A DNA stretch of 64,000 bases from Chlorokybus atmophyticus (taxonomy: Eukaryota > Plantae > Mesostigma and Chlorokybus algae). How positions within the stretch are numbered: the stretch's first letter is position 1; each line of letters begins with the position of its first letter. A program made the translations under genes and the position numbers. The stretch spans positions 30,730-94,729 of the forward strand of contig RHPI01000249.1 of NCBI GenBank assembly GCA_009103225.1, written 5' to 3'. The notes beneath the pieces were generated by a model that did no database searches, was not told the origin of the DNA, and was given only the letters and a program-made list of their open reading frames with translations. Shown piece after piece: positions 8,626 to 45,330 of this stretch.

Positions 8626-8927
8626 CCTCCCCCTCCCTCGCCTCTTCTTCCATGCCGCCGCTGTCGGAAACAATGGCTTTGCAGAAGCTGTAAAGAATTC
8701 AAATTTTATGGTTACGTTAGCGTAACTGGCCAGTTACTTATTGCGTCGAAATTACGCACCACTCCGTGTTTGCGGTATCTCGTTTTTGGGTAATGACTTG
8801 CATGTATGAAGCTATCAAGTGCAGGCATAACTGCGGGTGTGCACAGCAGCTAAGCAGAGGCAATGGCACTACAACAACGGTTGGGGCCCAGCAAAGCGCT
8901 AGCATGCTTAAATCATGTTAGATTGAG

Positions 8928-9465
8928 GCACTCCGCAAATACGTGCTGAAGTACGAGAAGAACACTTGGGATGACCACCTCCCATGGGTGGCCCTTGGAT
9001 ATCGATTGTCAAAGCAGGCGGCTCTGCGGGAGTATAGCCCGTACTACCTGCTGTTCAGGCGACCACCATTGCTCCCCTTCCGTGCGCAACAGGAGGTGGA
9101 TCGCGTCGTGAACAACCTTGACGACCCTGACTGGATGCACCACGACATCACCACGCGCGCCGCACTTTTCGAGCGCACCGTCCCCATGGCCTTCAACAAC
9201 CTGCGCATCGCGCAGCATCGCGACACGCTGCGCTACGAGCGCGTACGCAGCGGCTTCTACAAGGAGCGCCAACGGCGGTTCCAAGCAAGGGACTTTGCCT
9301 ATCGCATGGCAGCTACCAAAGACACGCTTGACACCTCCGTAGGCCGCACCGTCTACAAGGTACTCAAAGTGTACCCCACAGGGGTGCTGGACCTCCTTGG
9401 TCAAAACGGAGAAAGGTTGAAGGACAACATGGTGAACTGTGCGCCATGTCACCTTCCTTACGTAG
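8928..9465 (+). mobile_element. Ty3/gypsy integrase C-terminal fragment (same family as the 35035-44091 element)
   Basis: ALRKYVLKYEKNTWDDHLPWVALGYRLSKQ...YSPYYLLFRRPP...NLRIAQHRDTLRY...NCAPCHLP, the typical post-core integrase region of algal/bryophyte Ty3 elements. Confidence 0.85.
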
Positions 9466-12400
9466 CCGGCTTGTTGAGGTTGTATGCTATAGCACAGCAT
9501 GTTCGCAAGGAGAACACCGACTCCATCTGCCCGTACTACCCAGCAGCAGCACACCAGCTGCACGAAGCACTTGTCACCATGAGGGTGGAGGTCATCTTTC
9601 TGTTTTTGCTACGCATTACGCAGGTGGCGCAGCAGCATGTCCAGCACGGCATGGCTGTCCATGCAGCTGTCCGAGACAGCGTGACCCTCGACTCCCCTCG
9701 ACCCGACATTATGTTGTAAGCTAATGCGCAAAGAGCAAAGCAAATAAAGCCAGCAACTAGCAAACATCAATAAACAAGTACGCACTTCTCGAGCACTTGA
9801 TATTGCAAATGGTCTTCATAGCACTAAGGAAGTCCGTCTGTAATTTACCCACCAACCAAGCGTAGCGCAATTTATACGCAAATTAACAAGGTCACCACCG
9901 CTTGCACTCCCAACTTGTTGTATTAATTACGTGCAACTTGTTAGGGGACAATATTTATGTCATTATAAAGCTCGTACAAACGCACATAGGTGGACGCGCG
10001 ATGCACTCATTGCGCTCGTGCCAATGGAGCTGCCTTGTTGGAGTGTGGTTGATGAAGGATAGGGAAAAGCTAAGTGTGTCTTGTTACTATTGATGCTGGC
10101 AAAGGCATCACACACCCTAGAGGGCCACACAACCTTTTCATGGCCAGTTAGTTTGAGTCCTTGCGCATGCAAGTGTGCACCCATACACATATGTGCGTGC
10201 GCATATGTACATGTGCACGTGCGTGCAACTGCGTGCGTGCACGTGCGTACAACTGCCATTAGCAACTGGGCCTAAGCTTTTTGACCCGCCACGCCTGTTC
10301 GGCGCAACAAACTGTGCTCTGGCCGCAGCGTCCTGCTCACCTGCTTGTTGGGCCTTTATTGCGCACAGCTCCTATTCGGCCGACACATGCTGGCGGGGTG
10401 CTTTCAGCTGCTACCAAGGAGCATGCACGCTCGCTGCTGAAGCTGACTGATCTCAGCCGCAAGTTGCAGCTCTTAATGCGCACAACGAGCATTGTCAAGC
10501 AAGGCTTGAAGCGTGTCACAACAGGCCGTCTCGAGCAAATTGCCACACAGGCGCTGCTGCTCAGCGATTAGCTGGCATCTACTGCGGAAGCAATGCCCGT
10601 AACATCAATGCCAGAGATCCCGTGTGCAACAACAGTGCTTGAAGCCCTTTCTTGTTTCGGATGCACCGGTAGAAATGGGTTTCGGCAAGTTAGGCCGGAT
10701 CCGCAACTTTGTTCGTGAATTGTGCAAAGTTTGTTAGAGTTCCGCAAGATTCCTAATTAACTTATGGCTACATCCCTAATCCGGTTCGTGCCTGTTAGAA
10801 AAGCGCTTTTTCGTTAACACTTCTTTGCGAATATTTCCACAATTAAGTTGTGGCTATGTCTTGAACAAATTGCCATCAACCTTTGTTAATGCTCTATACC
10901 ATATAAATAAAGGAATACTCTTAACACTCCCACGCGAGCAGCTTGACCTCCAATGCTTGCTTGTATTGTAAAACACAGATGCCAAGTCCTGCGCAACAAG
11001 TCTTGAACTTGAGCGGTGGCAATGGCTTTGTCATGAAGTCCGCCAGCGTGTCTTCGGTATTACAGTACTGGAACTCCACCTCTCTCCGTGTGACCCTGTC
11101 TCGCACAAAGTGATGCATAACATCAATGTGCTTCATCCTTGCTGAGGCAATGGGATACTTCAACAACTTGATGGCTCCTTGGTTGTCACAGTTGATGACG
11201 ATGCACGCGGTAGGGTGCTCTAAGTCTGCCACAAGCTTGCGAAGCCAAAGTGCCTCTTTCACAGCTACTGCCGCTGCCATGTACTCGGCCTCCGATGTAG
11301 ATGCTGCAGTAGTGGGTTGTAGCCTGCTGTTCCAACTCACCACGCTTCCGTTCATCTTGAACACGTAGCCTGTTGTGGACCTCCTGCTGTCGAGGTCACC
11401 GGCAAAGTACGAGTCGCAGTACCCCTCCAACTGAGTGCTCCCGCTCCCAAACTTGATTCCAACTGTTGCGCTCCGAGCAACATAGCGTAGTACTCCCTTC
11501 GATGCTCTCCAGTGCTCCATGCTCGGTGCAGACATGTAGCGAGCAAGTACTCCCACAGCATGTGCAACATCGGGACGTGTGCACAGTGCTAGATAGAGCA
11601 TGCTGCCTACCAGCTCACTATATGGGTACCAAGCCTTGTCGAGTACCTCCCCATCCTTTGCCTTGATGAGGGCAGTGCCAAGTGCCAGTGGTGTGGTCTT
11701 GGTCTTTGCATCAGTGAGCCAGAACTTGGTGACGAGTCTTCTCACCAACTGCTCCTGACTAATCTTGATTGTGTGTGCCGCCCTGTCGCGCTCGATCACC
11801 ATGCCAAGAAACCACTTGGCCTCTCCAAGATCACGGACTGAGAGTGCTTGCTGTAGAGCAAGTTTTGTCTCCTGCAGGTGGTGCACCTGCCTGGCGGTGA
11901 TAATATCATCAACATACACGAGCAGCTAGACCTTGTTGTCTGCATGGATGAAGAGCCCATGGTCTGCAAAGAATGCGGTGTAGCTAAGTGCCTCAAGCTC
12001 CTTGGTGAGCCTAATGTGCCACATACGCGGTGCCTGTCGCAGCCCGTACAGTGCCTTGATCAGCTTGCACGCTGTGCCTCTCTCCCCTTCTTCATATCCA
12101 GGTGGTTGAAGATCTCCTCCTCCAGCTCTCCGTAGAGGAAGGCAGTCTTCACATCCAGGTGATGCAGCTCTAGGCATTCAGCAGTAACCACAGCTAGCAG
12201 TGCATGGAAGGTGGTATGATTACTTGCATGTGCAAAGAATTTGTTGAAGTCCACCTTCCTGCTGCAAAAAGCCCGTTACCACCAGTCTTGCCTTGTAGCG
12301 CTTAATGTTGCCTTGACTATCACGCTTCACCTTGAAGACCCACTTCACTGGAATGACCTTCACTCCTTGCGGAATCTGCTCCAGTAACCAAGTGTTGTTG

Positions 12401-19420: not shown

Positions 19421-19429
19421 GCTATATGC

Positions 19430-22155: not shown

Positions 22156-22159
22156 TGCC

Positions 22160-22545: not shown

Positions 22546-22649
22546 GATATTAGTCCTTATACCATAACCACTGGTACATTAAAGACTTAGCCATTTCACG
22601 CTGCCGGAACTTGTCCATAATATGCACTGTGCAACTATGCAAGCCAACT

Positions 22650-23335: not shown

Positions 23336-23339
23336 CACC

Positions 23340-25440: not shown

Positions 25441-25460
25441 TGGTATGCCGGAGTGATCTA

Positions 25461-25632
25461 CAGTCTAACCTCGATAAGTGCATACCATCGGGAACACCTC
25501 TTTCTATGCACTTATCGCGGATATGCACTTACGCTGCTTTATACTACCAGTAGAGTGCATTGGTGTCGGGCAAAACCATGCACTTATCGAGGATATGCAC
25601 TTATCAAATATGCACTTATCGAGGTTAGACTG
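25461..25632. mobile_element. Tc1/mariner-superfamily (pogo-like) MITE, 172 bp
   Basis: Perfect 24-bp TIR CAGTCTAACCTCGATAAGTGCATA; TA TSD at 25459-25460 and 25633-25634; internal repeats of TATGCACTTATC. Confidence 0.93.
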
Positions 25633-25854
25633 TACAACTACAACGCCAGCAACAGTAAGACAATACCTCTTGTTGCATGCTGATAGTGCAGCATGCAAAC
25701 CAACGCGTCGCGCTGACCAACATCTCTTGATGCAGCACGACACAGCATGCGCTCTCATGATGGTGACCTGCAACATATGCACACAGACAAATACAACATT
25801 GTGGTTTGTGTAACATGCATCGGCGGCGATGTATGCATGCGCATTGGTGGTTGA

Positions 25855-26690: not shown

Positions 26691-28038
26691 AATGTATGCA
26701 ACCCACTCGTGTACACGCCCTCAGGTGCACGCAGTGCCTTGTGTCACACACACGCCTTACACCCCCNCCAGGATGCTGAAGCCCACCCACCCTTATGCAC
26801 GATTGCAAGCATCGCCCCTAACTGTCACACATGCAACGAAAATCACAGTGCAGTTAACATACCACAGACAACAACTCACGCAGTGACTGCATCTGAACAC
26901 ACAGTCAACCTGTGACACGCAATTCAAAGATTTTCGATGATTCAGTCTCGTGCAAGTTGTGCACACATTGCATTACTCGTCTGGTAAGACTGTACACATG
27001 CCTAGCACTAGCATCTGCAACTTGCAATGTCAAAATTAACACAGAACTTAACTATACGAAGACAAACACTGCTATTGCCACATACAAGGCTATACAAGGC
27101 TGATAGCATATACGCACTACTAGCACTGCCAACTCTGCAAGTGTGTGCAAGCGGGTGCAGTTAAACTAGCGAAACCACACCAATGAGGTCCACTAGACTA
27201 CATGCCTACCCCAATACTTACCACAAGACAGCCAGGCTGTCAGCTGCCACCTCAGACCAACTAACAACTGTGCAAGAGGGTGCAAGGCAACAGGAGATCA
27301 GTCAACAGGCAAGCCCACACCCGCCAGCATCATTCAAGGGGACGTAGCATTACCTGAACCCTTTCTGTAACAGCACCACCGTCGCCGGTGATGCCCCTTC
27401 AATCCTCTACCCCAACACCCACACCGCCTATGACAAGCCTTTTAACGGCGTGGCCGCCACTGAGCTGAGAACTGAAAGTCCCCACATCAGATTAATGTGA
27501 CCTTTTATATCAAGAGTATATCAGCTATATACCTCTCGATAATTAACTCACAACTAGACATCGACCCTACAGATAGGGTAGTTAGGAAATCTAGCGTGAG
27601 CCAACCACAGCTTAGATAAGGTACCTATCGATAAGGTACCTATCCAAAGATACCTATCGTAAGGTACCTAACGAGATAGTGATCCCAATATATCAAATGT
27701 GACATTAAATAGGCTTGAATAAGCGGTTCTACACCCATTGGGACTTATTTAAGCTATGATAAAGCATCATAGCCTTTAATAAGCGAGGAACCGTAGAAAA
27801 GAGGTACAGTTAAGCATATTTAAATACTTATTCATACAAAATGTGTTATTCAAGTAGCAATAATACCCCTATTATTAGTGCTCCCGTAACATTCCCCCCC
27901 ACTTAGGTTTTCAACGTTCTCGTTGAACTCAAGTTGATCAGGCTTGATTGCGAGTAATTGTAACCAGAGAGATAGCAGGAAATGACAGGGTGGTAATGAA
28001 ATTGCACTGCCAGTCTGTCATAAAACCAAGCCCACAGT

Positions 28039-28473
28039 TTATGGGACATGACATGAATCCCAATAAGCTCGAAGCAACTCGTGGCAGTGCGTAAGATGCC
28101 TGTCGGGCTCCCAACTGTTATGTTCCGGGCCATACCCTTTCCATTTCACCAAATAGCGAGTTGCGCGTCCTCGACTATTTAGTTTATGGTTCAATATAGC
28201 TTCCACCTCGTATTCGAGCTCGCTGTCCACCTCAACTGGCGGTGGTGGAGGCTGTGTTCTACCGTCTGAGCGGTAAGGTTTCAACAAGTCTACATGGAAC
28301 ATGTTGTGTATACGCACACTTGGGGGCAATTGCAGTCGATAAGCGTGCGTACCAACTCTATCAGTGATAGAGAATGGACCTAACCATCGGGGCAGCAACT
28401 TGCGAGCGCCCGTACCTTTGATGGTTATTCTTGCGTTAAGCAAAACTTTATCGCCGACATCGAAAGTGGCCAT
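28039..28473 (-). CDS. Integrase GPY/F motif plus chromodomain (frameshifted from pol)
   Basis: KLLPRWLGPF; FHVDLLKPY; YEVEAILNHK...YLVKWKGYGPEHNSWEP. Confidence 0.93.
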   Translation of the reverse strand: MATFDVGDKVLLNARITIKGTGARKLLPRWLGPFSITDRVGTHAYRLQLPPSVRIHNMFHVDLLKPYRSDGRTQPPPPPVEVDSELEYEVEAILNHKLNSRGRATRYLVKWKGYGPEHNSWEPDRHLTHCHELLRAYWDSCHVP

Positions 28474-28476
28474 TTT

Positions 28477-31161: not shown

Positions 31162-31772
31162 GTCTTGTGGCTATTAATAAAAAAACGCTCCTTCACCTCC
31201 CCAATTGCATTAAGGGTGGAACCAGCAGCACGTACATACGACGTGACTGGTGTGAAAGGTATGTTATTACGTTTCACCCAAGCATGTTCAACAAAGTTAT
31301 GGTTTGCACCAGTATCAATTAATGCTGTATATGGTGTACCCATAAGTTGACTCTCAAATCTCCATTTGAGTGGCACTGAGTGACCATCAAATGTAGCTAA
31401 TGTCGGAGTGCCGTGATTGGTAGCAGACTTGATAAAGATCACTTGCAACGGTGAAGATCCTGTATCTTTGCGTGAGAGTTGCATGATTACTTCTCCCCCT
31501 TTCAACAATTGCGACCACGGGCCATGATACCGAGGGATAAATACACATGCAATGACAACATGTTGTAATTGCAACTCGTGTAAGTGCTTAACAGCAGTTA
31601 CTAATTTAGAGAATGGAACATTGATTAAAACACAACCGTTTGCATTTGTCAACACAGGTGGTGTGCTCATATCAGTCCATACATCTGATACATCACAAAG
31701 AGAGGAAACTTTATCAAGAAGTACAGAGCTTTTAAAGTCATTCTGCTCGACTAAGCTACCAACCATGGACAA
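31158..31772 (-). CDS. Dam/N6-adenine-MTase-like remnant followed by aspartic protease
   Basis: VLINVPFSKLVTAVKHL...ACVFIPRYHGPWSQLLKG resembles the NPPF...P.W...W module of phage Dam-like and DIRS 'MT' domains; then ALIDTGANHNF. Confidence 0.55.
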   Translation of the reverse strand: MSMVGSLVEQNDFKSSVLLDKVSSLCDVSDVWTDMSTPPVLTNANGCVLINVPFSKLVTAVKHLHELQLQHVVIACVFIPRYHGPWSQLLKGGEVIMQLSRKDTGSSPLQVIFIKSATNHGTPTLATFDGHSVPLKWRFESQLMGTPYTALIDTGANHNFVEHAWVKRNNIPFTPVTSYVRAAGSTLNAIGEVKERFFINSHKT

Positions 31773-31775
31773 TTC

Positions 31776-32936
31776 CTATTTCTTGTCTCTCTGCTGCTTG
31801 GCCTTCTGTGCATTCTGTTTTGCATAGCACTTAGCCTCCCCATGACCTGTCTTCTTGCAGAAACTGCAAGTGATGATGGATTTGGCCGCGTTGTAGGGGC
31901 TAGCAGGATGAGATGTTTTCGCCTTTTTCACAAAAGGTTTGTTGTCAGTGGCCGGGCGCTTTGCAGCTGAAACCGGGGCTGCCTCTTTTGCCGTTGTTTG
32001 CATGTTTGCGTGAGAGCGCTTTACACTGTCCACAGCAGCAACCATCTACATCAGCATTGGTAAATCCGTCGAGGCCCACTCTTGCAAACTCGCGGGGTTG
32101 ACGGCCACATGCTGCACGAGATCTGTGTACAAGCCATGCCTGAACATATCCAGCTGATCAGCATCACTGATAGGTAGTTTGCCAGCATTGATCTTGCTGA
32201 CAAAAGATTGAAAATCCTGGATATACTGCTGAACCGGACGCCCGTTCTGACGCAGGTTGTGCAGCTGGTTGCGAGCAACCTGGGCAGGATCTGCACCACC
32301 ATAGCGCTGCTCCATGAAAGAGCACAACTGATTTACTTCCCGCCCGAGGTTTGTATCCCGTTGCTTACGGCGGTACCATTCTGCCAGAGCATTGTTTGGG
32401 ATTAGCAACTCAGCTACACGCAATTTCCCCTCCTCAAAAATGTGAAGGGAGTTGACATAGTGTCGCAACTTCACAAGCCGGTCGAAGATGGCCGCTTGCT
32501 TGTTAGGAATAAACTCGGCAGGACGAGCAAGAGCTTGAACAGGTGGACCATTATCAGCACGTTGAAGACGCTCGATCATGTTCAGAACCCGTTTGCCTTC
32601 ACCCATCTGCCCCTCCCAATCTCGCCCCATAAAGGTGGTGAGCTTTGAAACTTTTTCTGCCAAAAGGAAGAGAAAGTTCACGAGTGACACAATTGCCTCA
32701 CGAGGGTCATGATCATAGGTGCTAAGGAAATGCTCCATCAAGTCCTGCTGTGTCATGCGAATAGAAAACTCAGGAAATATAGAAGGTGATCTACCATCCA
32801 CTGAAGTTTCCGCAGCTTTGGCAGCTTGAGACTCATCAGGTGCATCATCCGGATTCAGAATATCTTCCATCGATGGAAATTCCTCCTCATGGGAAGGTTG
32901 CTCTTTTTCCGAGCTCTCCCCTTTTGAGGTGGGCAC
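31776..32936 (-). CDS. Chromovirus gag with one internal TAG (32048-32046) and a CCHC knuckle
   Basis: ARNQLHNLRQNGRPVQQYIQDF (retrotransposon gag), then CSFCKKTGHGEAKC. Confidence 0.85.
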
Positions 32937-33159
32937 CGAGTGTTCTTCCCATTGTCTGCAAAACAGGCAGAATGGGATGGTGAGAACCTCACCAATGAAC
33001 CAAGTTCAACGAGAGGATCATAATGACCCCAAGTTGTAAAAGTCCCAAACAGAGTCCAAACTAGTCTCAAAATAAGAAAGGTTGGATCTTGAGTGTCACC
33101 AAACAGAACAAGTCTGAGCGGGACCATAATGTCCTAACCCTGTGTTGTCCTCAACCAAG

Positions 33160-33660
33160 TCCCAATTTCCAGGCCGAAGCTAGAGGGGGAGGGTTTCAAA
33201 CTAACAGGGTTTGGGAACAGATTGTCCTAGAACCTCCCCACAACTGTCCTAACCAAGTCCCGATCTCCAGGCCGAAGCCAGAGGGGAAGGGTTTGGGAAC
33301 AGTTTGGTTTGGAACTTACGGACCCGGATCAAGCGACCCGGCAAAGCCATTGGTAGGTCACGGGTACGTCACAGGCATGCAACAGGCAAGCCACAAGCAT
33401 GCAACAGGCAAGCCGTACGGTGACTAAGTGTGACATGCACTGGCAAGCATAATGACAAGCAATCACCGCATGCAATGACAAGCAATCACTGCAAGCAATG
33501 ATAGTGCACTAAGTGTGACAAACAGTGATGGCACACTAGCAAGCCGCAATCACCGCATGCAATAACAAGCAATCACTGCAAGCAATGATAGTGCACTGGC
33601 ACGTCACTGTGTGATGTGCATGAAAGTACACACGTGCACCTGGTAAGCACCTGGCAAGCA
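33160..33660. repeat. Direct and tandem repeats in the chromovirus 5' leader
   Basis: Duplicated AACCAAGTCCC..CCAGGCCGAAGC.AGAGGGG..GGGTTT unit; repeated GACAAGCAATCAC(C/T)GCA units. Confidence 0.8.
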
Positions 33661-35034
33661 GCTGACAAGCAGGCAAGTCACCGACGTGTGTGATGGTATC
33701 TCACACGTGGAGAGGCCGCCTCTTTAATAGGTGGCTTCAGCTTGGAGGTAGCGCAGGGAAGCAAACTTGAAGCTTGGGCTGCGTGGACGTATAGGAGGCC
33801 GACGCCTTCCGATTGGCCGAAAGCGGGTCGCTGCCCCCTATAAGTGCCCACGTCACCCCCCAGCTCCTGGATACCAATGTAACAGCACCACCGTCGCCGG
33901 TGATGCCCCTTCAATCCTCTACCCCAACACCCACACCGCCTATGACAAGCCTTTCAACGGCGTGGCCGCCACTGAGCAGAGAACTGAAAGTCCCCACATC
34001 AGATTGATGTGACCTTTTATATTAAGAGTATATCAACTATATACCTCTCGATAATTAACTCACAACTAGACATCGACCCTACAGATAGGGTAGTTAGGAA
34101 ATCTAGCGTGAGCCAATCACAGCTCAGATAAGGTACCTATCGATAAGGTACCTATCCAAAGATACCTATCGTAAGGTACCTAACGAGATAGTGATCCCAA
34201 TATATCAAATGTGACATTAAATAGTCTTAAATAAGCGGTTCTACACCCATTGGGACTTATTTAAGCTATGATAAAGCATCATAGCCTTTAATAAGCGAGG
34301 AACCGTAAAAAAGAGGTATAGTTAAGCATAATTATATACTTATTCATACAAGATGTGTTATTTAGGTAGCAATAATACCCCTATTATTATTGCTCCCGTT
34401 ACACTTTCCCTCACGATACTACAACCTATCCCCTTACAGCCGCCGCCGCCACCGCCCATGCCGCCCAGGCCACCACCACCCTCGCCGCCCCAACACTCAC
34501 ATCCTTAATTCGCGCCAAGTATACACACCGCTAACCCTAAGTTTAAACGACGCCGTTTGTCGCGCCGAAGCGCGCAGACATTGCGAGTTCACTTGCGCCG
34601 CTACGCGCGGACTTTCAAAGAACCGCACCGACATTACAAGAACTAGAACCGGTCGGGTCGACGCGGAACATCTATCGGGAAGATATTCAGTGACTCACGC
34701 CATTGCTTTGCGCGACAAAACGAGAACCACTCGGACTCGACAGGCCACAAACCTCGTAGACTCGTTGCGGACTCAACACGACACACTGGGATCCACCTCG
34801 TCCAAATGCGCGCAGGACTTGCAAGATGGGTAGCTCGGAAAACCCCTCCGGGCGGTTCAACTGAAGATGACGAAACTTCGTTTCGACTATCACACACACA
34901 CACACACACCCCAAGCACATCTTGACGTTATTTGTGCGCGGGCGTGCGCGCTTACTACACGCCTTGCCTACTTTGCATCATGCCGTCCCCCTCAGGGCTG
35001 CGTTCCGTCTACAGTAGCTTGTGTATGCTAGCAC

Positions 35035-35689
35035 TGCTTTCTTGATGGTCTGTACCGTACGCTCGGCGAGGCCGTCGGCTTGAGGGTGATCACGCGAGGT
35101 ACGGCGGTGGTCGATGTAACATTTGTCCAAGAGGGTGTCGAATTTCACTCTGAACTCAGTACCTTGGTCAGTGATGACCTTGGCGCAACTGCCAAATCGG
35201 CTGAGAACGTGAGAGAGGAAGGCTTGAGACACCCCCCTGCTGCTCTTGTCGGGTAATGGCACCAGCTCCACCCATTTGGAGAAGTGCTCGATCATGACCA
35301 GGATGTAACGGTTGCCACGCGCTGAGGGTGCCACGTCCCCCAAGATGTCGAGTCCCCATCGGTAAAAGAGGCCGGAGATAAGGAGTGGGTGCAAGGTGGG
35401 CGCTACGCGTGTTGAGGCTGGCGCGCACCATGTCACACTGCTGGCAGTGGCTGATGAACCTTTGCACCTGTTTTGTTAATCCATACCAATATTGTGCCCT
35501 CACTAGGCTGACCGTACGCTTGACACCGAAGTGTCCAAGCTCAGTGTGGAGGGAAGTGATGATGCCCTCGCGCGTGACTGGTGTCGGCACTTCCTTGTCT
35601 TCGTCGTGGAAGCGGCGATACAGCTTGTCACCTGCCCATCGATAGTGACGGGTGCGTTGGGTGACCCGGTCCTTCTCTCGAGCGCTCAT
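35035..35689 (-). CDS. Integrase N-terminus and core (frameshifted), truncated
   Basis: HTELGHFGVKRT..CQQC; WGLDILG; ITDQGTEF; HPQADGLAERTVQTIKKA. Confidence 0.92.
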
Positions 35690-35710
35690 GCCGGAGGGAA
35701 GATGGCCACT

Positions 35711-37354
35711 TTAAAGAAAGAAGAGTGACGGCTTGTCATGCCATATGTCCTGCCTGGTGTCGGGGGGCGCCAGCTCTGTGTCATCAACGTCAATGTCGGC
35801 TGTGTGGGCGTCTTCCAAGGGTGTGGTTGCCGCAGGGTCGGTAGCCTCAAGGGCAGGAATCGCCTCTACCGCTGCTGAGGCCGTGGTGTTGGTCTTGCGC
35901 CCCGAGCGCAACGCGGCAGCAGCAAACATGGCTGCCATGGTGGGGGCTGTTGCTGCAGGGATGAGCTCATGCCGCGCTCCAGTTGCGTCGTTGGTGCTGA
36001 GGTGAGGGTTGCGACTGAGGCCATCGGCATCTTGGTTGGTGAGGCCAGCGCGGTGGTCAATCTCGAAGTCGTATTCCTGTAACAGCAGGGCCCATCGAGC
36101 AAGTTTCTCTGTCAGATGTTGGTTGGTCATCAGCCACTTGAGGGGCTGATGATCGGTGATCAGTTGAAACTGTCGACCAAAGAGGAAAGGTCGGAAGAAG
36201 GAGATGGCCCACACTGCAGCGAGGCACTCCCCTTCGTAGCTGCTGTAGTTGGCCTCGGCGCTGTTGTTGCTTCGGCTGGCGTATGACACCACCCGCTTCT
36301 TCTTGTTCTCATCGTGCTGCGCCAGCACCGCTCCCATCCCCAGCTTGCTCCAGTTGGTGTGAAGGATGAAAGGCTTGGCGTAGTTCGGACGTTGAAGGAT
36401 GGGAGCGCTGGTGAGTCTGCTCTTCAGCTCCTCGAAGGCCTGCTGTTGCGGCTCCTTCCACGCGAACTCCACCTCCTTCTTCAGTAGCTCGTTGAGGGGC
36501 CTTGCGATCTTCGCGAAGTCCTTCACGAACCGGCGATAGTAGTTGGCAAGTCCGAAGAAAGCGCGCAGGCGTGTGAGGTCTGTCGGGGCAGGGATAGCTG
36601 CCAGAGCCTCTACTTTGGCCTGCTGCACATACACACAATGGGGCACAATCACGTGCCCTAAGCACAGCACCTTGTGGGTGAAGAAGGTACACTTGTCGGG
36701 GTGTACGGTCATCCCCACTCCCTTGTTTTGTTCCAGCACCGCTTCGATGTGCTGAAGATGCTCCTCGTTGCTGCGGCTGAAGATGAGGATGTCATCGATG
36801 TAGCACCGCGCGCAGTCCAGCCCCTTAAAGGCTTTGTCCATGACGCGTTGAAACTTGGCGGGGGCATTCTTCAGCCCGAACGGCATTACCTTCCATTGGT
36901 ACAACTGTCGGTTGCCCCAGAAGGAGGTCTTGTGCTTGTCCTCGTCCTTGATGGCAATTTGGTTGTACCCCTGACGCATGTCCAGGATGCTGAAGACTGT
37001 GCAGTCTCCCACATCATCAAAAATACCCTCTGCTGTGGGCATGGGGTACCGGTCTTGCTTGGTCTTGTTGTTGAGGGGGCGATAGTCGCCACACATGTGT
37101 CGCTCTGTCCAGTTGCCTGCTGAATCCTTCTTCAGTGGCATGACGGTTGCTGCTGCGAAGTCCGATGTGGACTCTTCGATAAGGCCTGCATCCAGCAGCG
37201 CCTTACATCTCTGTTCCACCAAGTCTTCTTCCAACTTGGAGAGCCTATATTGTCGTCGGAACACCGGCTCAGTGTCCACCAGCTCGATGTCCATCTGGTA
37301 CACTGAGCATGTACCCAATTCCCCTTCACATTGAAGCTGAATTGGCTCCTCCAT
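35711..37354 (-). CDS. Reverse transcriptase and RNase H
   Basis: RHMCGDYRPLN-like, MPFGLKNAP, CYIDDILIFS, ILHTNWSKLGMGAVL (first RNase H Asp appears as Asn), ECLAAVWA, TDHQPL. Confidence 0.97.
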   Translation of the reverse strand: MEEPIQLQCEGELGTCSVYQMDIELVDTEPVFRRQYRLSKLEEDLVEQRCKALLDAGLIEESTSDFAAATVMPLKKDSAGNWTERHMCGDYRPLNNKTKQDRYPMPTAEGIFDDVGDCTVFSILDMRQGYNQIAIKDEDKHKTSFWGNRQLYQWKVMPFGLKNAPAKFQRVMDKAFKGLDCARCYIDDILIFSRSNEEHLQHIEAVLEQNKGVGMTVHPDKCTFFTHKVLCLGHVIVPHCVYVQQAKVEALAAIPAPTDLTRLRAFFGLANYYRRFVKDFAKIARPLNELLKKEVEFAWKEPQQQAFEELKSRLTSAPILQRPNYAKPFILHTNWSKLGMGAVLAQHDENKKKRVVSYASRSNNSAEANYSSYEGECLAAVWAISFFRPFLFGRQFQLITDHQPLKWLMTNQHLTEKLARWALLLQEYDFEIDHRAGLTNQDADGLSRNPHLSTNDATGARHELIPAATAPTMAAMFAAAALRSGRKTNTTASAAVEAIPALEATDPAATTPLEDAHTADIDVDDTELAPPDTRQDIWHDKPSLFFL

Positions 37355-37569
37355 ATGTTAAGAAGAGCCTCCAGCTTCTCGCGAGTGTCTTCTGTGGCCA
37401 ACGGGCCAATGGCATGGTCCCAGGAGGTTGCATTGGCAACCACAGGAATGTCCTCCACTGTCATTGCTGCTTGCTCCTCCATGTGGATCACCTCGAGGGC
37501 TGTGTGAGCTGCCTTGGTGTTGGCCACGCGATTAGCCCACCCCCCCGGCCAAGTGTTTGAGATCCTTGA

Positions 37570-38550
37570 AGGACATGTGGCGGTCCTGCAACGCGAAGCT
37601 CAGCTCCAGCAGCCATACCATGCTGTTTTGGTTCATGGCGCGACCAAGCAGCTGGCATTGCTGATTGTCCGTCAGCGATGAGCCCGTGATGCTGTTGGGG
37701 AAGAATCCCATGGCGCGTTCACGTTCGCGTGCGTTGGGTTCTTCCAGCCTGTTGGTGGTCGCATCGAACACCATCCCGTCACCACTGTTCCGGAATGCGT
37801 AGGAGCCCGGGTAGGACACCAATGTTGGGAGTGCGCGACGGGGCTGACCGGGCTGATTGCACGGGTAGAAGTGGTTGTGGTCACGATGCAGGACAGGTTG
37901 TGCTGTGCGGCCGGGGTCAAAGATGTCGTCGACCAGCAGGGTGCGCGGCCGAGCGCTGCGTGTGTATTCGGCGGTCATGAGTTCCTCCACGGCGGCCAAG
38001 TTTGTCCATTTGGCACGTACACGATGTGCGCGTGAGCCATGTCGTGCCGCGTTCACCTTGAGTGGGTGCCCCAGAAGGGAGCAAACTTGTCGGTACCTGG
38101 AGGCCACGTGCGGGCGCTTGTCGTCCGCTGAATGCACATTTTCGATGACGTACCCCAGGGGTCTGGAGATCTGGTGGTGTTGAAGGAGGTGGATGATCCT
38201 CATCAGCTCCCAGAACAGCTTGGAGCGAGGGTTTTCGAGGCCTTGCCCCTTGCCTGCCCTGGAGTGCCCTTGGCATTCCCATCCAGCTATTAACAGGTCG
38301 ACGTTGCCGAGGGACAGGAGGTGATCTTCAGTGATCAGCCGGATGTCCTGTGGCAATGCTTTGAGGCTGCTTTGCAACGCCGAGAAGGGTAGTTGACGTG
38401 GATACCTGGCGTGCAGTTGGCGTAAGTGGTGCTTGAGGACCGTTTGCGCGTGTGGGTCGCAGTAATAGTATTTGACAACCTTCACGCCCGTGTTGAGGAC
38501 CGCAGCAAGACCACTGCCAATGCCTCCAAACAGCTCCAACACCGTGATGC
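37570..38550 (-). CDS. C5 cytosine DNA methyltransferase domain (DNMT3/DRM-like fold) inside pol
   Basis: Uninterrupted within the 530-aa ORF 37532-39124: motif I VLELFGGIGSG, II YYYCD, IV LLIAGWECQGHS, RSKLFWEL, VI YVIENV, VIII AHRVRAKWTNL, IX/X PNARERERAMGF...LLGRAM. Confidence 0.93.
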
Positions 38551-41500
38551 CCTGTTGCCTGCGAAAGGTGTGGAATTCCACCACTCCGGTGGCCACCATA
38601 TGGTGGTCCTGCACCTTGACGTGGTTTCGGTAGTTGGGGAAGCGCGTGGTGATCAGGGGATGGCTGAGCAAGATGTGTGTGTCCACCTGTGCGCGCCAGC
38701 ACCGTTCAGCTGGGTCTTGTAATGCTACTTCCACGGTGGCATCCTCCTGCTCCTCGTTGTACGGGATGGGAGAGGAGTTGCCGGTTCGACACGGGGCCGT
38801 GGCACCGGCAGCGACTTGCGTCCGAGCGCCGTCGTATGTGGCCATTACAGCCTTCCGGGTGCGGGCGTGGCTACGTGTGGCCATGGCAGCCATTTTGCGT
38901 TGGGCGCGCGTGCGCGAGACCAACTCGAGAGGCAGGAAACCCTGTACCTCTCCGTCATCCTCATCCCAATGTGGCCGAAACCACGCTCGCTCTGTCCAGC
39001 AGTCGAGGCCCATGCCCACAGGGAAGTTGAAGTCCTGCCCAAGCAGAAAGTCGAAGGAGCCGGCATTGGTGACCACACATTGCTGGACGATCTCGGTCGT
39101 GTGGGTTGGGTCCAGCCCTGTCAACCGAATGCAAAAGGCTACCTGTGGCAGTGTCCAACACGTACGGGCAAGGCACCAAGTCGGAGCTGGTTATGCCTAG
39201 GGACCGCGCGAGGAAGCGCCCGATGATGACAGGCTGTGCTCCGGTGTCCAACATTACTCGCTTGGGTGCCAGACCGTTGATGGTAACGTGCTTGCCTTGG
39301 TTGGCCACCATGGCAGCATTGGCGTCGATACGCAGCCTCTTCATACGAGGTGTCTGTACCTCTGACTCAGTTGTCTCAGCTGGAGGTGCTGAGCGCATGG
39401 CAGCCAGAGCTCCTCTGCCTGCTGGGTCCGGAGAACCCCCTCCTTGCCCTCTCCCTCTGCCAAACCGACCTTGTCGTGGTGGTTGGTAGACACGGGGGGC
39501 CCTCGGTACTGGAGGTTCCGGCGCTGGTTGTGGTGGCGGCGCAGGTGAATGACGCCTCTGCGAAGCTGGATTCATGCCCGCGGGTGTACCGAATGGCTGT
39601 GGAGGAAACCCAGGCGGACCCGGTGTTTGTGGGCCTACCTCGCGATCAGCTTGCTCCGCGGCGTACGTCCATCGAACAGCATGAGCCGCTTCTCTAACCA
39701 ATGTCCCTTCCCACGTGGCCGTGGGCTCGGTGTCCGTGTCGGTCCAATGATGATATTAAGGCATGGGCTGCAGGAATACGGCGCGTAGTAGCTGTCGCCA
39801 CATGTCGTGAGTGATGGTGGGGACTCGCAAGATCCCTGCCATGTAGGCATCCCACCTTCCTTGTACCACTCCCACATCGAGCACGGTCATGGCGAGAGCG
39901 CGTGGGGTGCGCTGGAGGTCAGTATGCTGTGCGTGTAGCTTATGAGCGCTGGCGATGCGCCGCCGTTGCCGTGCGGCTTCCACCCCTGGCAGGCGCAGCA
40001 TTGCCTCTTGCACTCCCTCCAGCGTGTCCGGGGCTGTGGTGGCAGCCTCGTCGTATGCTTGTCGCAGCGAACGAACGAATGCCCCCAACCATGATGCTCG
40101 GTTGCCAAAGGCAAACAAGGGGGACAGCAGGGTGATTGGTAACGAGCCATGTCACGAGACGGGCTCGAGCGGCGCTGCCCTCTTGCATCCTCATCATCTG
40201 TCTTAATGTGTTGCCCTCAGGCCTGTGCAACATGACTGCTTGCCGGATGAGTGCGGTACGGAGTTGTTGCTCCCCCACCATACGAGCTCCTCCTCGTTGT
40301 GTGGTGTCCCCTTGCGGGGTGAGGTATCCTCGCCCTGCATCGCGTTGATCCTCAGGCATGTCTTCGACCAAAGGAGGCAGCAGCGGGGCGATTACCCCCC
40401 TCAATTGTTGCGCCAACGCCCTCGCTTGGTCTGCAACAATTGCGTGTCCTAGCTGCTCGATGGCGATTGCCGTGGAGTACGCTGTGGTCAGCGCCGTAGA
40501 GGCGTTGGCAACATTTGCTGGCGCTCCGGTCGGTACGATAACGGTGTGTGCTGCTTCATACGCTTGTCGGCGCGCGTCCACTTGGGCATCTTGGTCCATT
40601 CGATAACGATGGGCCTGTTCGAGTGCAGAGAAACGCTCTTGACGACTGCCTGGAGTGAGCCCCTGGAGAGCGGGATCAGCGCCCAGCGCGATGTCAGACA
40701 TGTTGACCACGAGGTCTTGCATTTTGTGCCGCTGGAGGCCGAGTGGGTCCAGTGGTGAGGGCTCGAAGTCGATCTGTTGAGCGGGCATGGGTTGCTGCGT
40801 TTAACTGGGTGCGCCCTGCAATCGTGCGTGTAATACCAGGAACAACTGGATGGCCAGCTCCAATACCGCAGGTCGTCGGTAGGTGACCCCGAACAGACGA
40901 TCCCTCATCTCTGGTGCAGTGCCGGCGAGGATTTCATCCTCCAGCTGTTGTTGTGTGGGTTCCGGCAGCGTGTGGTACTCTGGAGGTGGTAGGGGCAAGA
41001 TGCGATCATCGCGTGCCACGCGCGTGGTGCGTTGCCCCCCTGGTCTGTACGCAACGGTGGTGGGTTCCACGTTGCGTAGAACCGACGCCCAGGCGCGCTC
41101 TGCTTGTGACCCGCGTGGCACTTGCTGTGTGACGTCCAACGATGGTGGCGGTGCCGTTCGTCCCTCAGGAAGTGGTGCAGTGGGTATGGCAGCACTACTG
41201 GAGGCGATGGTGGTGGCACCTGCAGCAGTCGTCGTTACTGCGGTGGCGGCTGTGAGGGTGGCAGCAGTTTCGGTTGATGTGGTCGCTTTGATGGAGGCAG
41301 GAGTGGTGGACTCACCACTTACGAACGCAACGACCATGGTTGTTGCGGCGTGGGTGCTCTCCATCACCGGGGACAGCGTGGTGCCAAGAGTGGTGATACC
41401 TGCTGTCGTGGTCGGTGTGGACGCCGACGGTGTCGTCGACGGCTTCGTCCCAGCGGTGGTTGTGGCTGCCGAGGCAGCACCACTTGTGGCGTCCGACGAT

Positions 41501-41622
41501 GCCGCTGTTGACGACGCGCCAGCTTCCCTGCGCGCACGTCTGGATGGTTGTACGCGTGACGGCGTGGGAGTGTCCCTATCCCGTTTCGGTGCCATCAGTG
41601 CCCACCTAGCAGCATAGCAGGC

Positions 41623-43423
41623 TTGATAGTCCTGCTCCTTGTTCTCCTCCAGCTGTGCCACGCGCGCCATCAGGGCTGCCACTTGGTCAATAGCCGGTGG
41701 ATTGGTTGGTGCCTTCACAGCAGCAGCTCCAGCGCGAGGACGTCCCTTAAGTCCTTTGTGCTGTGGAGGGCGGTTTTTCCCTCTATAGCCAGCTTCTTCC
41801 TTGCGGGCGCCAGCGTTGTTGTTGTTGTTGGGGTTGTGGCCACCAGCGTTGTTGCCGTTGTTGCGACCACCAGCGTTGTTGCTGTTGTTGTAACCGCCAG
41901 CGTGGTTGCTGTTGTTGTAGCCCCCGTTGTTGTTGTTGTTGTTGCCGCGGTAGCCGACAGCGTTGTTGCCGTTGTTGTAGCCAATAGAGGGCCGCAGCTC
42001 AGGGAACTTGAGCCAGCATACTGTCTCCAAGTGTCCCGTCTTGTGGCAGTGGTCGCACACAAGGTTGCCGTAATCTTCGGTGCACTCTTTTTGATAGTGG
42101 CCATGTCGACCACACCGGTGGCACAGCACTGGAGCCACAAGGGCAGCATGAGCTGACCGTTTATCCTTGTGATGGATGCCTTGCGGCTCGCGGCTCGCGG
42201 CTGCGGTCTCGCCGAAGAGGCTCTGCACTTGTGCCTGCTATAGGCCGTGCGGCACTGCGATTGGTGTCCAGCACCGCTTTCTCATACACTGCGCGCTTAT
42301 GGATGGCTTGTGCCGTCTCGAAAGCTTCCTTGAGGGTGTAGCCGAGGGGCCTGCTGTAGTTCAGCGTCAGGCGCGTTGACTCACTCAGGGTGGGATCCAA
42401 CTCGGCCACATACACCACTGCTGCCGCCTCCTCACTGACGATCTTGTAGTCAATGTCTTTAAGCAACCCTTCCAACCGTGAATACAGTCGGAGAGGGTCC
42501 TCGTGGGGCTTCCGTCGGAAACGCCTCAACTCCTCCACCTTACTGTTGGTTTGAGGTGGGAAGGTGCGCCGAAGTGCGGCGTAGAGGTCCTTCAACGGGG
42601 AGTCCGACATGGCCGCGCCCACTGTGAGCGCGGGTGCACGCCATGCCACTGAGCCGAGGGTGAAAACACTGCCTCCCGCTGGAGCACGCGAGTTCGGTGT
42701 TGGTAGCAGGGGCGTACCCATCTCCAATGCTGCAGCTTGCTGCTCCTCTTGTTGCTCCCTGATGATGGCAGCGGTGCGGTTGAGTATCCTGATCCGGCGC
42801 TCGGCATTCTTGCTTTCGATCTCTGCAGCAGTCACTGAGGCCACTACCACCTCAACTTCTTCATTCTCTGCCTTCTCCATGGCTGCAGCTAGAGTGAGAC
42901 CCGTGACTGAGGCGGGCGGGGCCGCTGCTACAGGGACAGTAACCGATGGGCTGTGCAGTGACGTGGCGGCTATTGTGCTGGCCAACTCACCATAGCCATC
43001 AATCCTGTGCAACTCAGCGACGGACTTCCACACATCATGTGCTTCGTGATCAAGGTATTGAGCGGACACATGAAACGATACCTCATCTGTCCAGCCCTTG
43101 CTCTTGAGGGCCTGCTGCCGCATCTTGGAGTGGAACTTGATGATGAACTCGTCAAGTGAGGTGGTGCCAGGGCGTCCGGAGAAGCGTAGGGAGTTGGTTG
43201 AGCTGGAAGGCTCCATCTCTTCGTCGTCACTGTCCGACGGTGGTGGAGATGCTCGTTGACGAGGGGTGGAGTGAGAGGAGGTGAAGCCGAAGACGGGGCG
43301 TAAGCCTCTGCTGCTACGGTAATCGCTCCCTTCACTTGCGCGCTCGTAGGTAAGGTTGGAGGTTGGGCTCCAGCTGTTGAGGTCCCCTTCTTCTATTGGC
43401 GAGAAAGGGGTGGGCCTGCTCAT
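41623..43423 (-). CDS. Ty3 gag (frameshift near 42230) with two zinc knuckles and an N/G-rich low-complexity tail
   Basis: FSGRPG..LDEFIIKF, SAQYLDHEAHDVW, LRRFRRKPHEDPLRLYSRL; CHRCGRHGHYQKEC and CDHCHKTGHLETVC. Confidence 0.85.
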
Positions 43424-43632
43424 ACAGCTGATGCGATGGTGAAAGTGGCTGAACGGTAGAGTGTTTGTGCTCTACAATGGGATCTCCAGTGCTGCTATCA
43501 CCCAACACACTAGCGCTTGTGCGCGCTATGCGATGACGGTGACAACACTGCACTGTGATGTGTACAACTACAGATTGCGATGCTGATGTACAGCCTGCAA
43601 CTACACTCACTTGAGCAAAGAGGGTGACACTG

Positions 43633-44091
43633 TAAGTCAACAAGCCACTACTATAGGTAGTGCTGTTTACACAGTTCTTTGCGTGAGTGGAAGAGAAATT
43701 ACACTGTTAAGTGAGGTGAATGAGCAAGCAACACGTGGATGCTATGCCCTGACTGATGCCAACAAGCGCACCGCGACCAAGTACACAAAGCTCACAGCGA
43801 GGACAAGCACAGTGCATAAGAACATGCACAGGCTCTCACACGGTGAGGGGGTCATATCGAGGCTATTTCCACAGGAAACTCCCACTCGATATAGAACCTG
43901 ACTTATAACTGAACTCACAACTGAACAGCTACGCGCGGTGCCTATGTAGACTATGGTCACGAGCTACTCTAGAGACATGACCTAGCTACTGGTCAGAGAC
44001 GCGCGCGGGTTGCCATGCTGGTAAGCCGGGCGAAGGTCTCGCCGTAGGCATGCCCGATGATGACTGGCATGCTTGGGCGATAGGCATGACA
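43633..44091 (-). repeat. 5' LTR of the DNMT-Ty3 element (inner boundary approximate)
   Basis: Starts TGTCATGCC on the minus strand; homologous to 7326-7979; no clear TGG-type PBS found. Confidence 0.7.
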
Positions 44092-44329
44092 ATAACCACC
44101 ACCTCGAGAAGGGCAATTTTTGTTGACCGCTCTTATATAGCTGAACACATTGTGCAAAACATAATAGCAAAACAAGTGCAGCGCTGTCTGATCTTATGCT
44201 ACTTTCATCGCATAATTTCGCTAACTCAAAAGCAAGTATGAGCAAAACGCAATCCGCGCACGCTCAAACTTGCAGACAAGCTTTGCGCCTTCGTGACAAT
44301 CAGGCTTTCATCGGCGATAAAGGCGGCAT

Positions 44330-45330
44330 GGAGGAATCTATAACACAAGATGCCAAAGCGAATTACATGTAGCTCATGTCCTCAACTTGTTCTTGAACTT
44401 TAATAGTAAGCTTCCCCCAATTGCGCCTGTGCTTAACGCAATAGTGCGTATCATTAAGTATATTGGCGCCATCGCAAGTCGCATGCAGTGCTGAAAGAGG
44501 CACGCGCCCATTGTTTAATAAGTTGCATAAGTGTGTTGCATCTAAATCTGTCACTCACTGTTATTTGTCAACAAAGCAATGGTTGATAGATTAAGCAAGA
44601 GTTGAAGATGCTTGCTAACATGCGCATTGCCACCCATCGTATGCTACAGAGCTTGTATTGCAACAAAGGATTGTTGTAAGGAAGTATGGTTTATACTTAA
44701 TTCCCGCGCAATTAGGAGCATGCATCATTGGCGGATCTCAGTAGAGCCGAGGCTATCAAGCTGAACATTGTGGAGGAAAGCCACCCACCGGCTTTTTGCA
44801 AAAAGTGCAGCAAGTCATGAAGTTGTTGAAACCCTCTTGTGATGGTATCTGCATGTCGGAGGCTAATCGTGCTACCTTAGCGGGGTGGCTTACCACATTC
44901 TAGAGAACATGCAATGGCAGTGAATGTTATCTTTTTTATTGAATGCATCAAGAGTCGTGTCACGCGTGTCTAAATGTGGAAAGATAAAAGGGAGTGGTTG
45001 GCACAATCATTGATGTCTTCATGCTTGATGCTCTGCTCGACCCCAAGCATTATGCCACCATCGGCAACAACCGCAGTGCGATTGCACAGCTGTTGAAGAA
45101 GTGCTTCAAGTAGGGGACTTGATTACCCATTATGCATGGTCTTGTAAAAGCAGTGAATGACATAAAGGTGCAGATGCATGATGCCAACAACCCACAACAA
45201 AGCGTGGCTCTGCGTGAGTTGAGCATGTTGCGTAATGACCTTAAATGAACATTTTGAGCAAGCCTCATGGTGCAATATTCATGTGTAGTGCGGGATGTTG
45301 GTGTAATTCTTCAACCAGTGTGTAGTGTCG
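44330..45330 (+). mobile_element. hAT-superfamily transposase remnant
   Basis: Fragments VAHVLNLFL, IIKYI/RHRKSHAVLKE, QKVQQVMKLLKP..DGICMSEANRATL and ALLDPKHY occur in the expected order; heavily degraded. Confidence 0.55.

What the first reader, a model, noticed from the sequence alone, without database searches (positions are those of the whole stretch)
37570..38550. Ty3/gypsy retrotransposon carrying its own cytosine DNA methyltransferase between protease and RT
All core C5-MTase motifs occur in canonical order in a stop-free 530-aa stretch, in frame with the protease C-terminus. The catalytic Cys, ENV and RxR are retained; motif IV is GWECQG rather than GxPCQG. As part of Pol, the enzyme would be packaged in the particle and could methylate the new cDNA. 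DNMT-containing retrotransposons have been reported in Symbiodinium and the charophyte Klebsormidium (de Mendoza et al. 2018, from memory), so the class is known. This family, its E-C motif and its host may be new.
Basis: partly seen in the sequence, partly recalled or inferred. Interest (0 to 1): 0.85.

Follow-up and report, generated by a model that had tools for sequence, protein, structure and literature searches.

The report
Chlorokybus retrotransposon carrying DNMT3-like methyltransferase
This is a broken copy of a multi-copy jumping gene in the early-branching green alga Chlorokybus whose replication polyprotein contains a DNMT3-like DNA methyltransferase that likely methylates the element's own new DNA copies; the design is already known from another alga, but relatives turn up from chlorophyte algae to liverworts.

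Summary
Observation confirmed. A stop-free minus-strand frame (37535-39190) joins the C-terminal half of a Ty3/gypsy protease to a complete, non-permuted C5 methyltransferase that is DNMT3-like by profile and predicted fold. The host is Chlorokybus atmophyticus, from an identical TFIIB. This copy is dead: it has frameshifts, stops and a split integrase. Most sister copies lack the breaks that could be checked, including the DNMT-to-RT one. It is a new member of the published streptophyte Gypsy-DNMT3 family (KnitGypsy-Dnmt3, PMC5890265). The E-C motif is not special: 86 of 147 aligned relatives have it. The domain is under purifying selection in intact relatives. Beyond the papers I read: the family has about 250 clusters, reaches Closterium, liverworts, Scenedesmus and Cymbomonas, and splits into two clades by DNMT position. 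Relatives show split terminal repeats, and one clade has a leaky stop after the DNMT. Activity and substrate are untested. This scan noted the family before (16 findings, at least 4 genomes, two on other pieces of this genome).

The parts
43630..44091 (-). 5' terminal repeat (LTR-like 'A' unit), begins TGTCATG at 44091; inner boundary approximate; no tRNA-type PBS right after it
   Evidence: Contig depth is highest here and falls to about 1-2 beyond. It has the same TGTCATG start as relatives' repeats, and a ~70% similar repeat lies at 7313-7979. PBS scan.
42164..43471 (-). gag (capsid-like region)
   Evidence: 436-aa frame. No Pfam hit, but 23-35% BLAST matches to the N-termini of family polyproteins.
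39756..42237 (-). CCHC zinc knuckles, Asn-rich and Thr/Ala-rich low-complexity tracts, and an uncharacterised region; broken by stops and frameshifts
   Evidence: zf-CCHC E 0.0011; translation; breaks compared with sister copies
38966..39341 (-). aspartic protease, split by a frameshift near 39139 (DTG half in one frame, C-terminal half in the DNMT frame)
   Evidence: Asp_protease_2 E 3e-6; tblastn with P0213 gives two frames; sister contigs differ at this place
37586..38551 (-). DNMT3-like C5 cytosine methyltransferase domain, motifs I-X in canonical order, motif IV GWECQG
37321..37585 (-). DNMT-RT linker; frame break near 37540 in this copy; no stop in the frame that leads into RT
   Evidence: the break is not shared by 44.8 of 51.4 depth units in run X2
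36000..37357 (-). reverse transcriptase (YIDD) and RNase H
   Evidence: RVT_1 E 2e-30, RT_RNaseH E 1e-36
35023..35710 (-). integrase zinc finger and DDE core, cut off at about 35023
   Evidence: Integrase_H2C2 E 1e-12, rve E 8e-10; homology to relatives ends at 35023
8925..9476 (+). integrase C-terminal part of the same family in opposite orientation, beginning where the integrase at 35023 stops; likely the displaced 3' part of this copy (inversion or mis-join); no PHD match detected there
   Evidence: P0042 residues 1124-1250 map to 35403-35023 and residues 1246-1421 to 8928-9458; same pattern for P0068 and P0213

Best explanation
This is a decayed copy of a multi-copy Chlorokybus Ty3/gypsy family of the streptophyte Gypsy-DNMT3 group, whose Pol holds a DNMT3-like methyltransferase that is likely packaged in the particle and likely methylates cytosines in the element's own new cDNA before integration. 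Shown: domain order gag-PR-DNMT-RT-RH-IN, DNMT3 fold, conserved catalytic residues, family-wide presence, and purifying selection in intact relatives. Inferred: a single Gag-Pol product in active Chlorokybus copies; release of the DNMT by the element's protease; enzymatic activity with SAM; cDNA as substrate; and a benefit from arriving pre-methylated (looking like host DNA, or shielded from editing, the ideas discussed in PMC5890265). Odds by step: family membership about 0.9; active enzyme in intact copies about 0.75; own cDNA as main substrate about 0.6 given activity and packaging. This copy itself makes no functional Pol.
For: Motifs and frame. DNMT3 affinity: profile E 8e-26 for DNMT3A versus 7e-13 for the best DRM-type entry (4onj; DRM label recalled), 2e-8 HhaI, 3e-4 DNMT2. 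AF2 model pLDDT 94; VIA Z 28.4, rmsd 2.8 over 274 residues to DNMT3B, versus 24.5 HhaI, colinear over 4-330. Conservation in 150 representatives: catalytic Cys 147 of 148 aligned, ENV Glu 149 of 150, both Arg 146 of 150, motif I Gly 127 of 127. Single-ORF PR-DNMT-RT-RH-IN relatives: P0212, P0213, P0246. The DNMT-RT frame break is not shared by most depth in run X2. dN/dS 0.09-0.18 for the least saturated pairs of stop-free relatives. DNMT and RT trees split the same two architecture groups. The related SymbioDIRS-Dnmt3 domains methylate CG de novo.
Against: The isolated Klebsormidium domain gave no methylation in yeast; inconclusive, as DNMT3B failed too. The element is not CpG-poorer than its neighbours: o/e 0.77-0.84 versus 0.69 for the chromovirus and 0.53-0.56 for the copia elements. 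Against majority sister copies the domain shows 10 synonymous and 14 non-synonymous differences, a ratio of about 0.44 by my arithmetic on 238/755 sites, from 24 of the 40 rows shown of 241; this fits post-insertion decay but does not prove selection in this host. Broken relatives give 0.35-0.66, and divergent near-saturated pairs 0.24-0.35. The motif IV Pro is replaced in most members. Run X1 is uninformative at the DNMT-RT break (contigs end there). Whether the stop at 39756-39758 is shared was not shown. No Klebsormidium sequence came up among named hits, so direct grouping is untested.
Confidence: 0.55

Rival explanations
1. The enzyme is active but acts mainly on host DNA at or after integration (insertion-site chromatin, other copies, or the element's own promoter), possibly steered by the PHD finger on the integrase, so that it limits copy number or shapes the landing site.
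For: A PHD finger follows the integrase in most long relatives. In one clade the DNMT sits directly before the integrase. In another it precedes a conserved leaky stop, so it would be made in bulk. PMC5890265 raises a self-limiting role.
Against: Polyprotein fusion ties the enzyme to the particle, where cDNA is the first double-stranded DNA it meets (established LTR-retrotransposon biology). No data on flank methylation were obtained.
Confidence: 0.2
2. The domain is kept as a DNA-binding or base-flipping module (cDNA chaperone, junction or target recognition) with little or no catalysis.
For: No activity of the Klebsormidium domain in yeast. No CpG depletion. Pro of the Pro-Cys motif replaced by Glu in 86 of 147.
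Against: The Cys, ENV, RxR and SAM-binding Gly are almost invariant across 150 clusters at under 50% identity, which a purely structural role would not need. Pro and Glu both occur in both clades.
Confidence: 0.15
3. The enzyme methylates the element's genomic RNA or the RNA-DNA hybrid rather than DNA.
For: It is co-packaged with RNA (inference). The authors raise RNA methylation for SymbioLINE-Dnmt.
Against: Sequence and fold are DNMT3-like; DNMT2 scores only E 9e-5 to 3e-4.
Confidence: 0.07
4. A one-off capture or nested insertion of a host DNMT3 fragment, drifting neutrally.
For: This copy is broken and has other elements nested beside it.
Against: The domain is covered by sister-copy contigs like the rest of pol. 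It is intronless, sits at the same place in relatives from other lineages, and co-diverges with RT.
Confidence: 0.02

Closest known systems
KnitGypsy-Dnmt3 of Klebsormidium nitens (de Mendoza et al. 2018, PMC5890265); called 'streptophytes (Gypsy-DNMT3)' in bioRxiv 10.64898/2026.05.21.726589
   Same: Gypsy element with an intronless, non-rearranged DNMT3-like domain inside Pol; conserved catalytic residues; purifying selection; streptophyte alga host. The DIRS-like A-coding-B-A-B repeat layout given in the paper's Fig. 4c legend is seen in relatives (L041 fully; L018 and L053 B-A-B; L004 partly).
   Different: Host is Chlorokybus. I could not see the figure, so the DNMT position in the Klebsormidium Pol is unknown to me. 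The paper does not mention chlorophyte or liverwort members, two DNMT positions, a PHD finger, a leaky stop or the CA-NN-TG junction in the text I read.
SymbioDIRS-Dnmt3 of Symbiodinium (PMC5890265)
   Same: DNMT3 domain inside Pol; two domain orders; split direct repeats; shown to methylate CG de novo in yeast; no CpG depletion, as here.
   Different: Tyrosine-recombinase retrotransposon, not a DDE-integrase Gypsy; reported as an independent capture.
EpiLTRs of Cymbomonas and Euglena (bioRxiv 10.64898/2026.05.21.726589)
   Same: LTR elements with a cytosine DNMT in pol; one host genus (Cymbomonas) also has a member of the present family (P0335).
   Different: Their DNMT is sister to DNMT4, lies at the 3' end of pol in Cymbomonas, and comes with a DAM and a chromodomain.
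Host DNMT3A/B/C and plant DRM2
   Same: Same fold (Z 28.4) and DNMT3 signatures such as the AHRxRxxWxNL and LLG-x-(S/A) motifs.
   Different: About 25% identity; extra helix between motifs II and III; catalytic loop QGHSRAG instead of NDLSIVNP; no PWWP, ADD or UBA domains; not permuted like DRM.

Membership tests
KnitGypsy-Dnmt3 / streptophyte Gypsy-DNMT3 | Ty3/gypsy domain set and order (PR, RT, RH, DDE integrase) | tested here: met
KnitGypsy-Dnmt3 / streptophyte Gypsy-DNMT3 | DNMT inside the Pol reading frame, intronless | tested here: met
   In frame with the PR C-half here. The break before RT is not shared by 44.8 of 51.4 depth in X2. Single-ORF relatives P0212, P0213, P0246.
KnitGypsy-Dnmt3 / streptophyte Gypsy-DNMT3 | DNMT3-like and not rearranged | tested here: met
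KnitGypsy-Dnmt3 / streptophyte Gypsy-DNMT3 | Key catalytic residues conserved | tested here: met
KnitGypsy-Dnmt3 / streptophyte Gypsy-DNMT3 | Purifying selection on the DNMT (Ka/Ks under 0.2) | tested here: inconclusive
   Met in stop-free relatives (0.09-0.18). About 0.44 for this decayed copy against majority sister copies, from a partial list.
KnitGypsy-Dnmt3 / streptophyte Gypsy-DNMT3 | DIRS-like split repeats A-coding-B-A-B | tested here: inconclusive
   Met in relatives (L041 fully; L018, L053, L004 partly). This copy has lost its 3' end, and its 5' repeat could also be a plain LTR.
KnitGypsy-Dnmt3 / streptophyte Gypsy-DNMT3 | Groups with the Klebsormidium sequences in DNMT and RT trees; same DNMT position | not tested
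   No Klebsormidium protein among named hits; figure not held.
KnitGypsy-Dnmt3 / streptophyte Gypsy-DNMT3 | Methyltransferase activity and context | not testable with these tools
   Needs a bench assay; the published test was negative and inconclusive.
SymbioDIRS-Dnmt3 | Tyrosine recombinase instead of DDE integrase | tested here: not met
   rve and H2C2 integrase present; no recombinase hit among the scanned ORFs.
EpiLTR | DNMT4-sister domain at the 3' end of pol, plus DAM and chromodomain | tested here: not met
   DNMT lies before RT and is DNMT3-like. No DAM or chromodomain in 9 scanned relatives.
DRM | Circularly permuted motif order | tested here: not met
   Canonical order; colinear with DNMT3.
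Phygy (REXdb non-chromovirus lineage) | tRNA-Trp PBS and NCGN target-site duplication (PMC6317226) | tested here: inconclusive
   No tRNA-type PBS next to the 5' repeat here, and the one readable TSD in a relative is CATA (L041). No Phygy sequence was compared.

The most novel reading that the evidence does not exclude
The Gypsy-DNMT3 lineage is as old as green plants: one capture of DNMT3 before chlorophytes and streptophytes split, kept under selection ever since, with the domain before RT in the streptophyte branch and before the integrase in the chlorophyte branch. It would replicate without a tRNA primer and integrate by its DDE integrase cutting a circular cDNA at an internal CA-NN-TG junction, which yields the A-coding-B-A-B layout. 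In the liverwort-containing clade a leaky stop would make the methyltransferase at capsid-protein amounts. The Chlorokybus family would be the deepest streptophyte witness of this system.
Probability: 0.3. Interest if true: 0.72.

Novelty: new member of a known kind. Interest (0 to 1): 0.42.

Why it matters
For this locus alone, little: it is a dead copy of a described kind of element. The family picture matters more. A transposon that carries the host's own silencing enzyme was reported as a Klebsormidium-lineage acquisition; here it is a large, old lineage spanning both halves of green plants and kept under selection. That makes the open question (why would a transposon methylate itself?) testable in tractable hosts such as Marchantia and Scenedesmus. 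It also offers hundreds of compact stand-alone DNMT3-like enzymes of unknown sequence preference.

Tried and rejected
No whole genome is held for this window, so copies could only be seen through run contigs. No RNA holder was listed, which says nothing about expression. E-C as a unique motif: rejected. Viral or bacterial origin: no relative in viral contigs (20 pattern matches, none confirmed); the 2 hits in prokaryote genome bins are whole retrotransposons, likely mis-binned. CpG depletion as a self-methylation footprint: not seen. LTR pair, PBS or B-A-B for this copy: none found. Self-priming complement: clear in relatives L004, L006 and L041 (10-11 nt), not detected in this copy (fold z -1.9). 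dN/dS of the window against relatives: saturated. Root of the family: the only outgroup RT falls on the type-A side with a long-branch warning, so monophyly of type A and the direction of the domain move are not shown. Literature searches: Chlorokybus + DNMT3 + retrotransposon gave 0 papers; searches gave no listing that describes the wider range, the leaky stop or the junction (judged from titles and abstracts for most). One search gave nothing usable on the Pro before the catalytic Cys; one search found no readthrough passage.

Full report
OBSERVATION. The minus-strand frame 37535-39190 runs 552 codons without a stop and holds motifs I to X of a C5 cytosine methyltransferase in canonical order (Pfam E 4.6e-12). 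Upstream lie gag, zinc knuckles and an aspartic protease; downstream lie RT, RNase H and a DDE integrase. The frame starts in the C-terminal half of the protease. The DTG half is in another frame, and the DNMT frame stops at 37532-37534 with RT in other frames. This copy cannot make an intact Pol.

HOST. A TFIIB gene at 56852-59316 matches the record jgi/Chlat1/7330 at 100% over an 88-aa exon, against 79% for Mesostigma and 74% for Chara; four exon hits are 100% and the other three include intron overhang. I read Chlat1 as Chlorokybus atmophyticus, and its place in the earliest-branching streptophyte lineage is recalled.

THIS COPY AND ITS SISTERS. Contigs of runs X1 and X2 cover 35021-44381 at summed depths of about 30-490, against about 1-2 on the adjacent unique DNA. 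The tool warns that this is no copy number, but it marks a multi-copy family that includes the DNMT. Majority contigs do not share the frame breaks near 40117, 39139, 37321 and 35398 or the stop near 40802. The break between DNMT and RT near 37540 is not shared by 44.8 of 51.4 depth units in X2; X1 contigs end there. The frame leading into RT has no stop. The stops at 39756-39758 and 35711-35713 were not among the rows shown. Of the 31 listed differences inside the DNMT frame (of 40 rows shown, 241 in all), 17 are C-to-T-type changes in this copy: 6 CG, 3 CHG, 8 CHH. The integrase stops at 35023, and a plus-strand piece at 8925-9476 continues it almost to the residue, which points to an inversion or mis-join. 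The element's 3' end was not found. A chromovirus-type Gypsy (27366-34403, LTRs 96% alike, TSD CTTTC) lies just beyond the break.

WHAT THE DOMAIN IS. A family profile scores DNMT3A at E 8e-26, the best DRM-type entry at 7e-13, HhaI at 2e-8 and DNMT2 at 3e-4 (similar). The AlphaFold model (pLDDT 94, pTM 0.92) matches DNMT3A/B/C first by Foldseek. By VIA-align it gives Z 28.4 (rmsd 2.8, 274 residues) for DNMT3B, 25.6 for the CpG-specific entry 4dkj and 24.5 for HhaI, colinear over the whole domain. It is DNMT3-like and not permuted like DRM.

THE FAMILY. Searches found 33 and 38 homologs, including proteins named from Marchantia, Calypogeia and Closterium, and 250 clusters (50% identity) at E up to 1e-30. 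In the best 150, the catalytic Cys is kept in 147 of 148 aligned, the ENV Glu in 149 of 150 and each Arg in 146 of 150. The residue before the Cys is Glu in 86, Pro in 49 and other in 12 of 147, so E-C is the majority state. Architecture of the 150: 84 have the DNMT after RT/RNase H or directly before the integrase (type B), 20 have it after the protease or before RT (type A), and 46 could not be assigned. Type A and type B are the two sides of one branch in the DNMT tree (29 v 86 rows, support 99; rows with no neighbouring domain or under 270 aa were dropped from 165 candidates) and in the RT tree (11 v 48, support 98). These are fast trees without a reliable root. Named type-A members are all streptophytes. 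The only 2 named type-B members, of 20 clusters looked up, are chlorophytes: Scenedesmus KAF8056149.1 and Cymbomonas KAK3250090.1. This fits vertical descent since early green plants, but two names are thin, and two captures or horizontal transfer are not excluded.

SELECTION. For stop-free relatives the DNMT has dN/dS 0.126 (L001/L002; RT 0.038), 0.093 (L001/L030), 0.146 (L022/L049), 0.09 (L025/L048) and 0.168 (L003/L004). Broken copies give 0.35-0.66, and near-saturated distant pairs 0.24-0.35. This copy against its majority sisters gives about 0.44 on a partial list. CpG o/e is 0.77-0.84, higher than in the neighbouring elements without a DNMT (0.53-0.69), so there is no self-methylation footprint; the paper reports the same for SymbioDIRS-Dnmt3.

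FEATURES SEEN IN RELATIVES ONLY. (a) Split repeats: L041 is A-coding-B-A-B with TG...CA ends and a 4-bp duplication CATA; L018 and L053 show B-A-B, and L004 A...B-A. This is the layout given for KnitGypsy-Dnmt3 in the Fig. 4c legend. (b) A junction (C/T)GACA-NN-TGTC(A/G) occurs in 8 of 58 loci of both types, against a shuffle mean of 1.2 (maximum 5 in 30 shuffles), mostly a few hundred bases after the integrase, and in several loci after a G-rich tract. The window's element starts with the same TGTCATG. A-coding-B-A-B is a circular permutation of a two-LTR circle, so cutting a circle at the inner junction would explain it. This is inference, by analogy with recalled models for PAT/Ngaro elements and circle-junction cleavage by foamy-virus integrase. 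(c) A 10-11 nt complement between the 5' repeat and the bases just after it in L004, L006 and L041 suggests Tf1-like self-priming (concept in PMC6317226). (d) 24 of 26 loci with both DNMT end and RT start have an in-frame stop 57-67 codons before the RT hit (19 TAG, 5 TAA), followed by CAR in 23 and by exact CAR-YYA in 4. CAR-YYA is the tobacco mosaic virus readthrough signal (PMC2194720). Most of these loci are near-copies of one family, so about four or five lineages are independent. Their hosts were not determined; their linkers resemble the clade with the liverwort proteins. The Chlorokybus linker has no such stop.

MECHANISM. Most likely the element makes a Gag-Pol whose protease frees a compact DNMT3-like enzyme inside the particle, and the enzyme methylates the new cDNA so that the copy arrives pre-marked (0.55). 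The rivals are action on host or insertion-site DNA (0.2), a non-catalytic DNA-binding role (0.15), RNA methylation (0.07) and a passenger insertion (0.02). Sequence preference cannot be read from the model: the catalytic loop differs from DNMT3A.

COMPARISON AND NOVELTY. It works like, and most likely belongs to, the KnitGypsy-Dnmt3 group. No defining feature failed; grouping with the Klebsormidium sequences and activity are untested. It is not SymbioDIRS-Dnmt3, an EpiLTR or a DRM. What I saw of the papers: PMC5890265 main text parts 1-4 of 7, further passages and a supplement search that returned only peer-review text, no figures; bioRxiv 10.64898/2026.05.21.726589 passages, with no mention of Chlorokybus; PMC12344493 and PMC11244446 passages; PMC6317226 passages and supplement rows; PMC2194720 passages. 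The supplementary DNMT trees of PMC12344493 and of the preprint, which I could not see, may already include Chlorokybus, chlorophyte or liverwort members. Most subscription papers are outside the library. Earlier notes of this scan, read at the end (none by sequence), report the same family in mosses, liverworts, a hornwort and two other pieces of this genome, with the leaky stop and circle idea. They are unchecked repeats, not support.

VERDICT. Real; a new member of a known kind; interest 0.42. The value lies in the family's breadth and odd replication features rather than in this dead copy.

Noticed in passing
window 25855-26550 (+): A second, unrelated C5 methyltransferase pseudogene of phage/bacterial type (DLCCGGGG, WASPPC, ENI, RHRVFE), intronless, with at least three in-frame stops. 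PHROG 363 E 2.5e-7; weak matches to actinophage DNA methyltransferases at 27-31%. Possibly a viral or mobile-element relic.
   Followed up: partly
window 27366-34403 (-): Young chromovirus-type Gypsy with LTRs 96% alike, TSD CTTTC, Met-type PBS and a chromodomain; no DNMT.
   Followed up: partly
window 8925-9476 (+) and 35023 (-): The two integrase pieces meet almost to the residue 26 kb apart in opposite orientation: a likely inversion, or a mis-join near the gap at 7980-8625.
   Followed up: partly
window 7313-7979 (-): About 70% similar terminal repeat of a related subfamily, TGTCATG...ACGACA, abutting the assembly gap.
   Followed up: partly
window 10716-23600 (-): Two decayed copia elements about 80-87% alike with three LTR-like repeats.
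   Followed up: no
window 25459-25634: Small element with inverted ends (TACAGTCTAACCTCGATAAGTGCATA), MITE-like, seen in the sequence.
   Followed up: no
window 56852-59316 (+) and about 61860-64000 (+): Host TFIIB gene and a PUB-domain gene. The Chlat1 TFIIB model appears to read into an intron after TFK, so its annotation may be slightly off.
   Followed up: partly
L057, L058: Complete members of this retrotransposon family sit in cyanobacterial genome bins, likely mis-binned eukaryotic contigs.
   Followed up: partly
P0284, P0335, L022, L024: Type-B elements (RT-RH-DNMT-IN-PHD) are more numerous among the representatives than type A, and are often intact single ORFs in metagenomes.
   Followed up: partly
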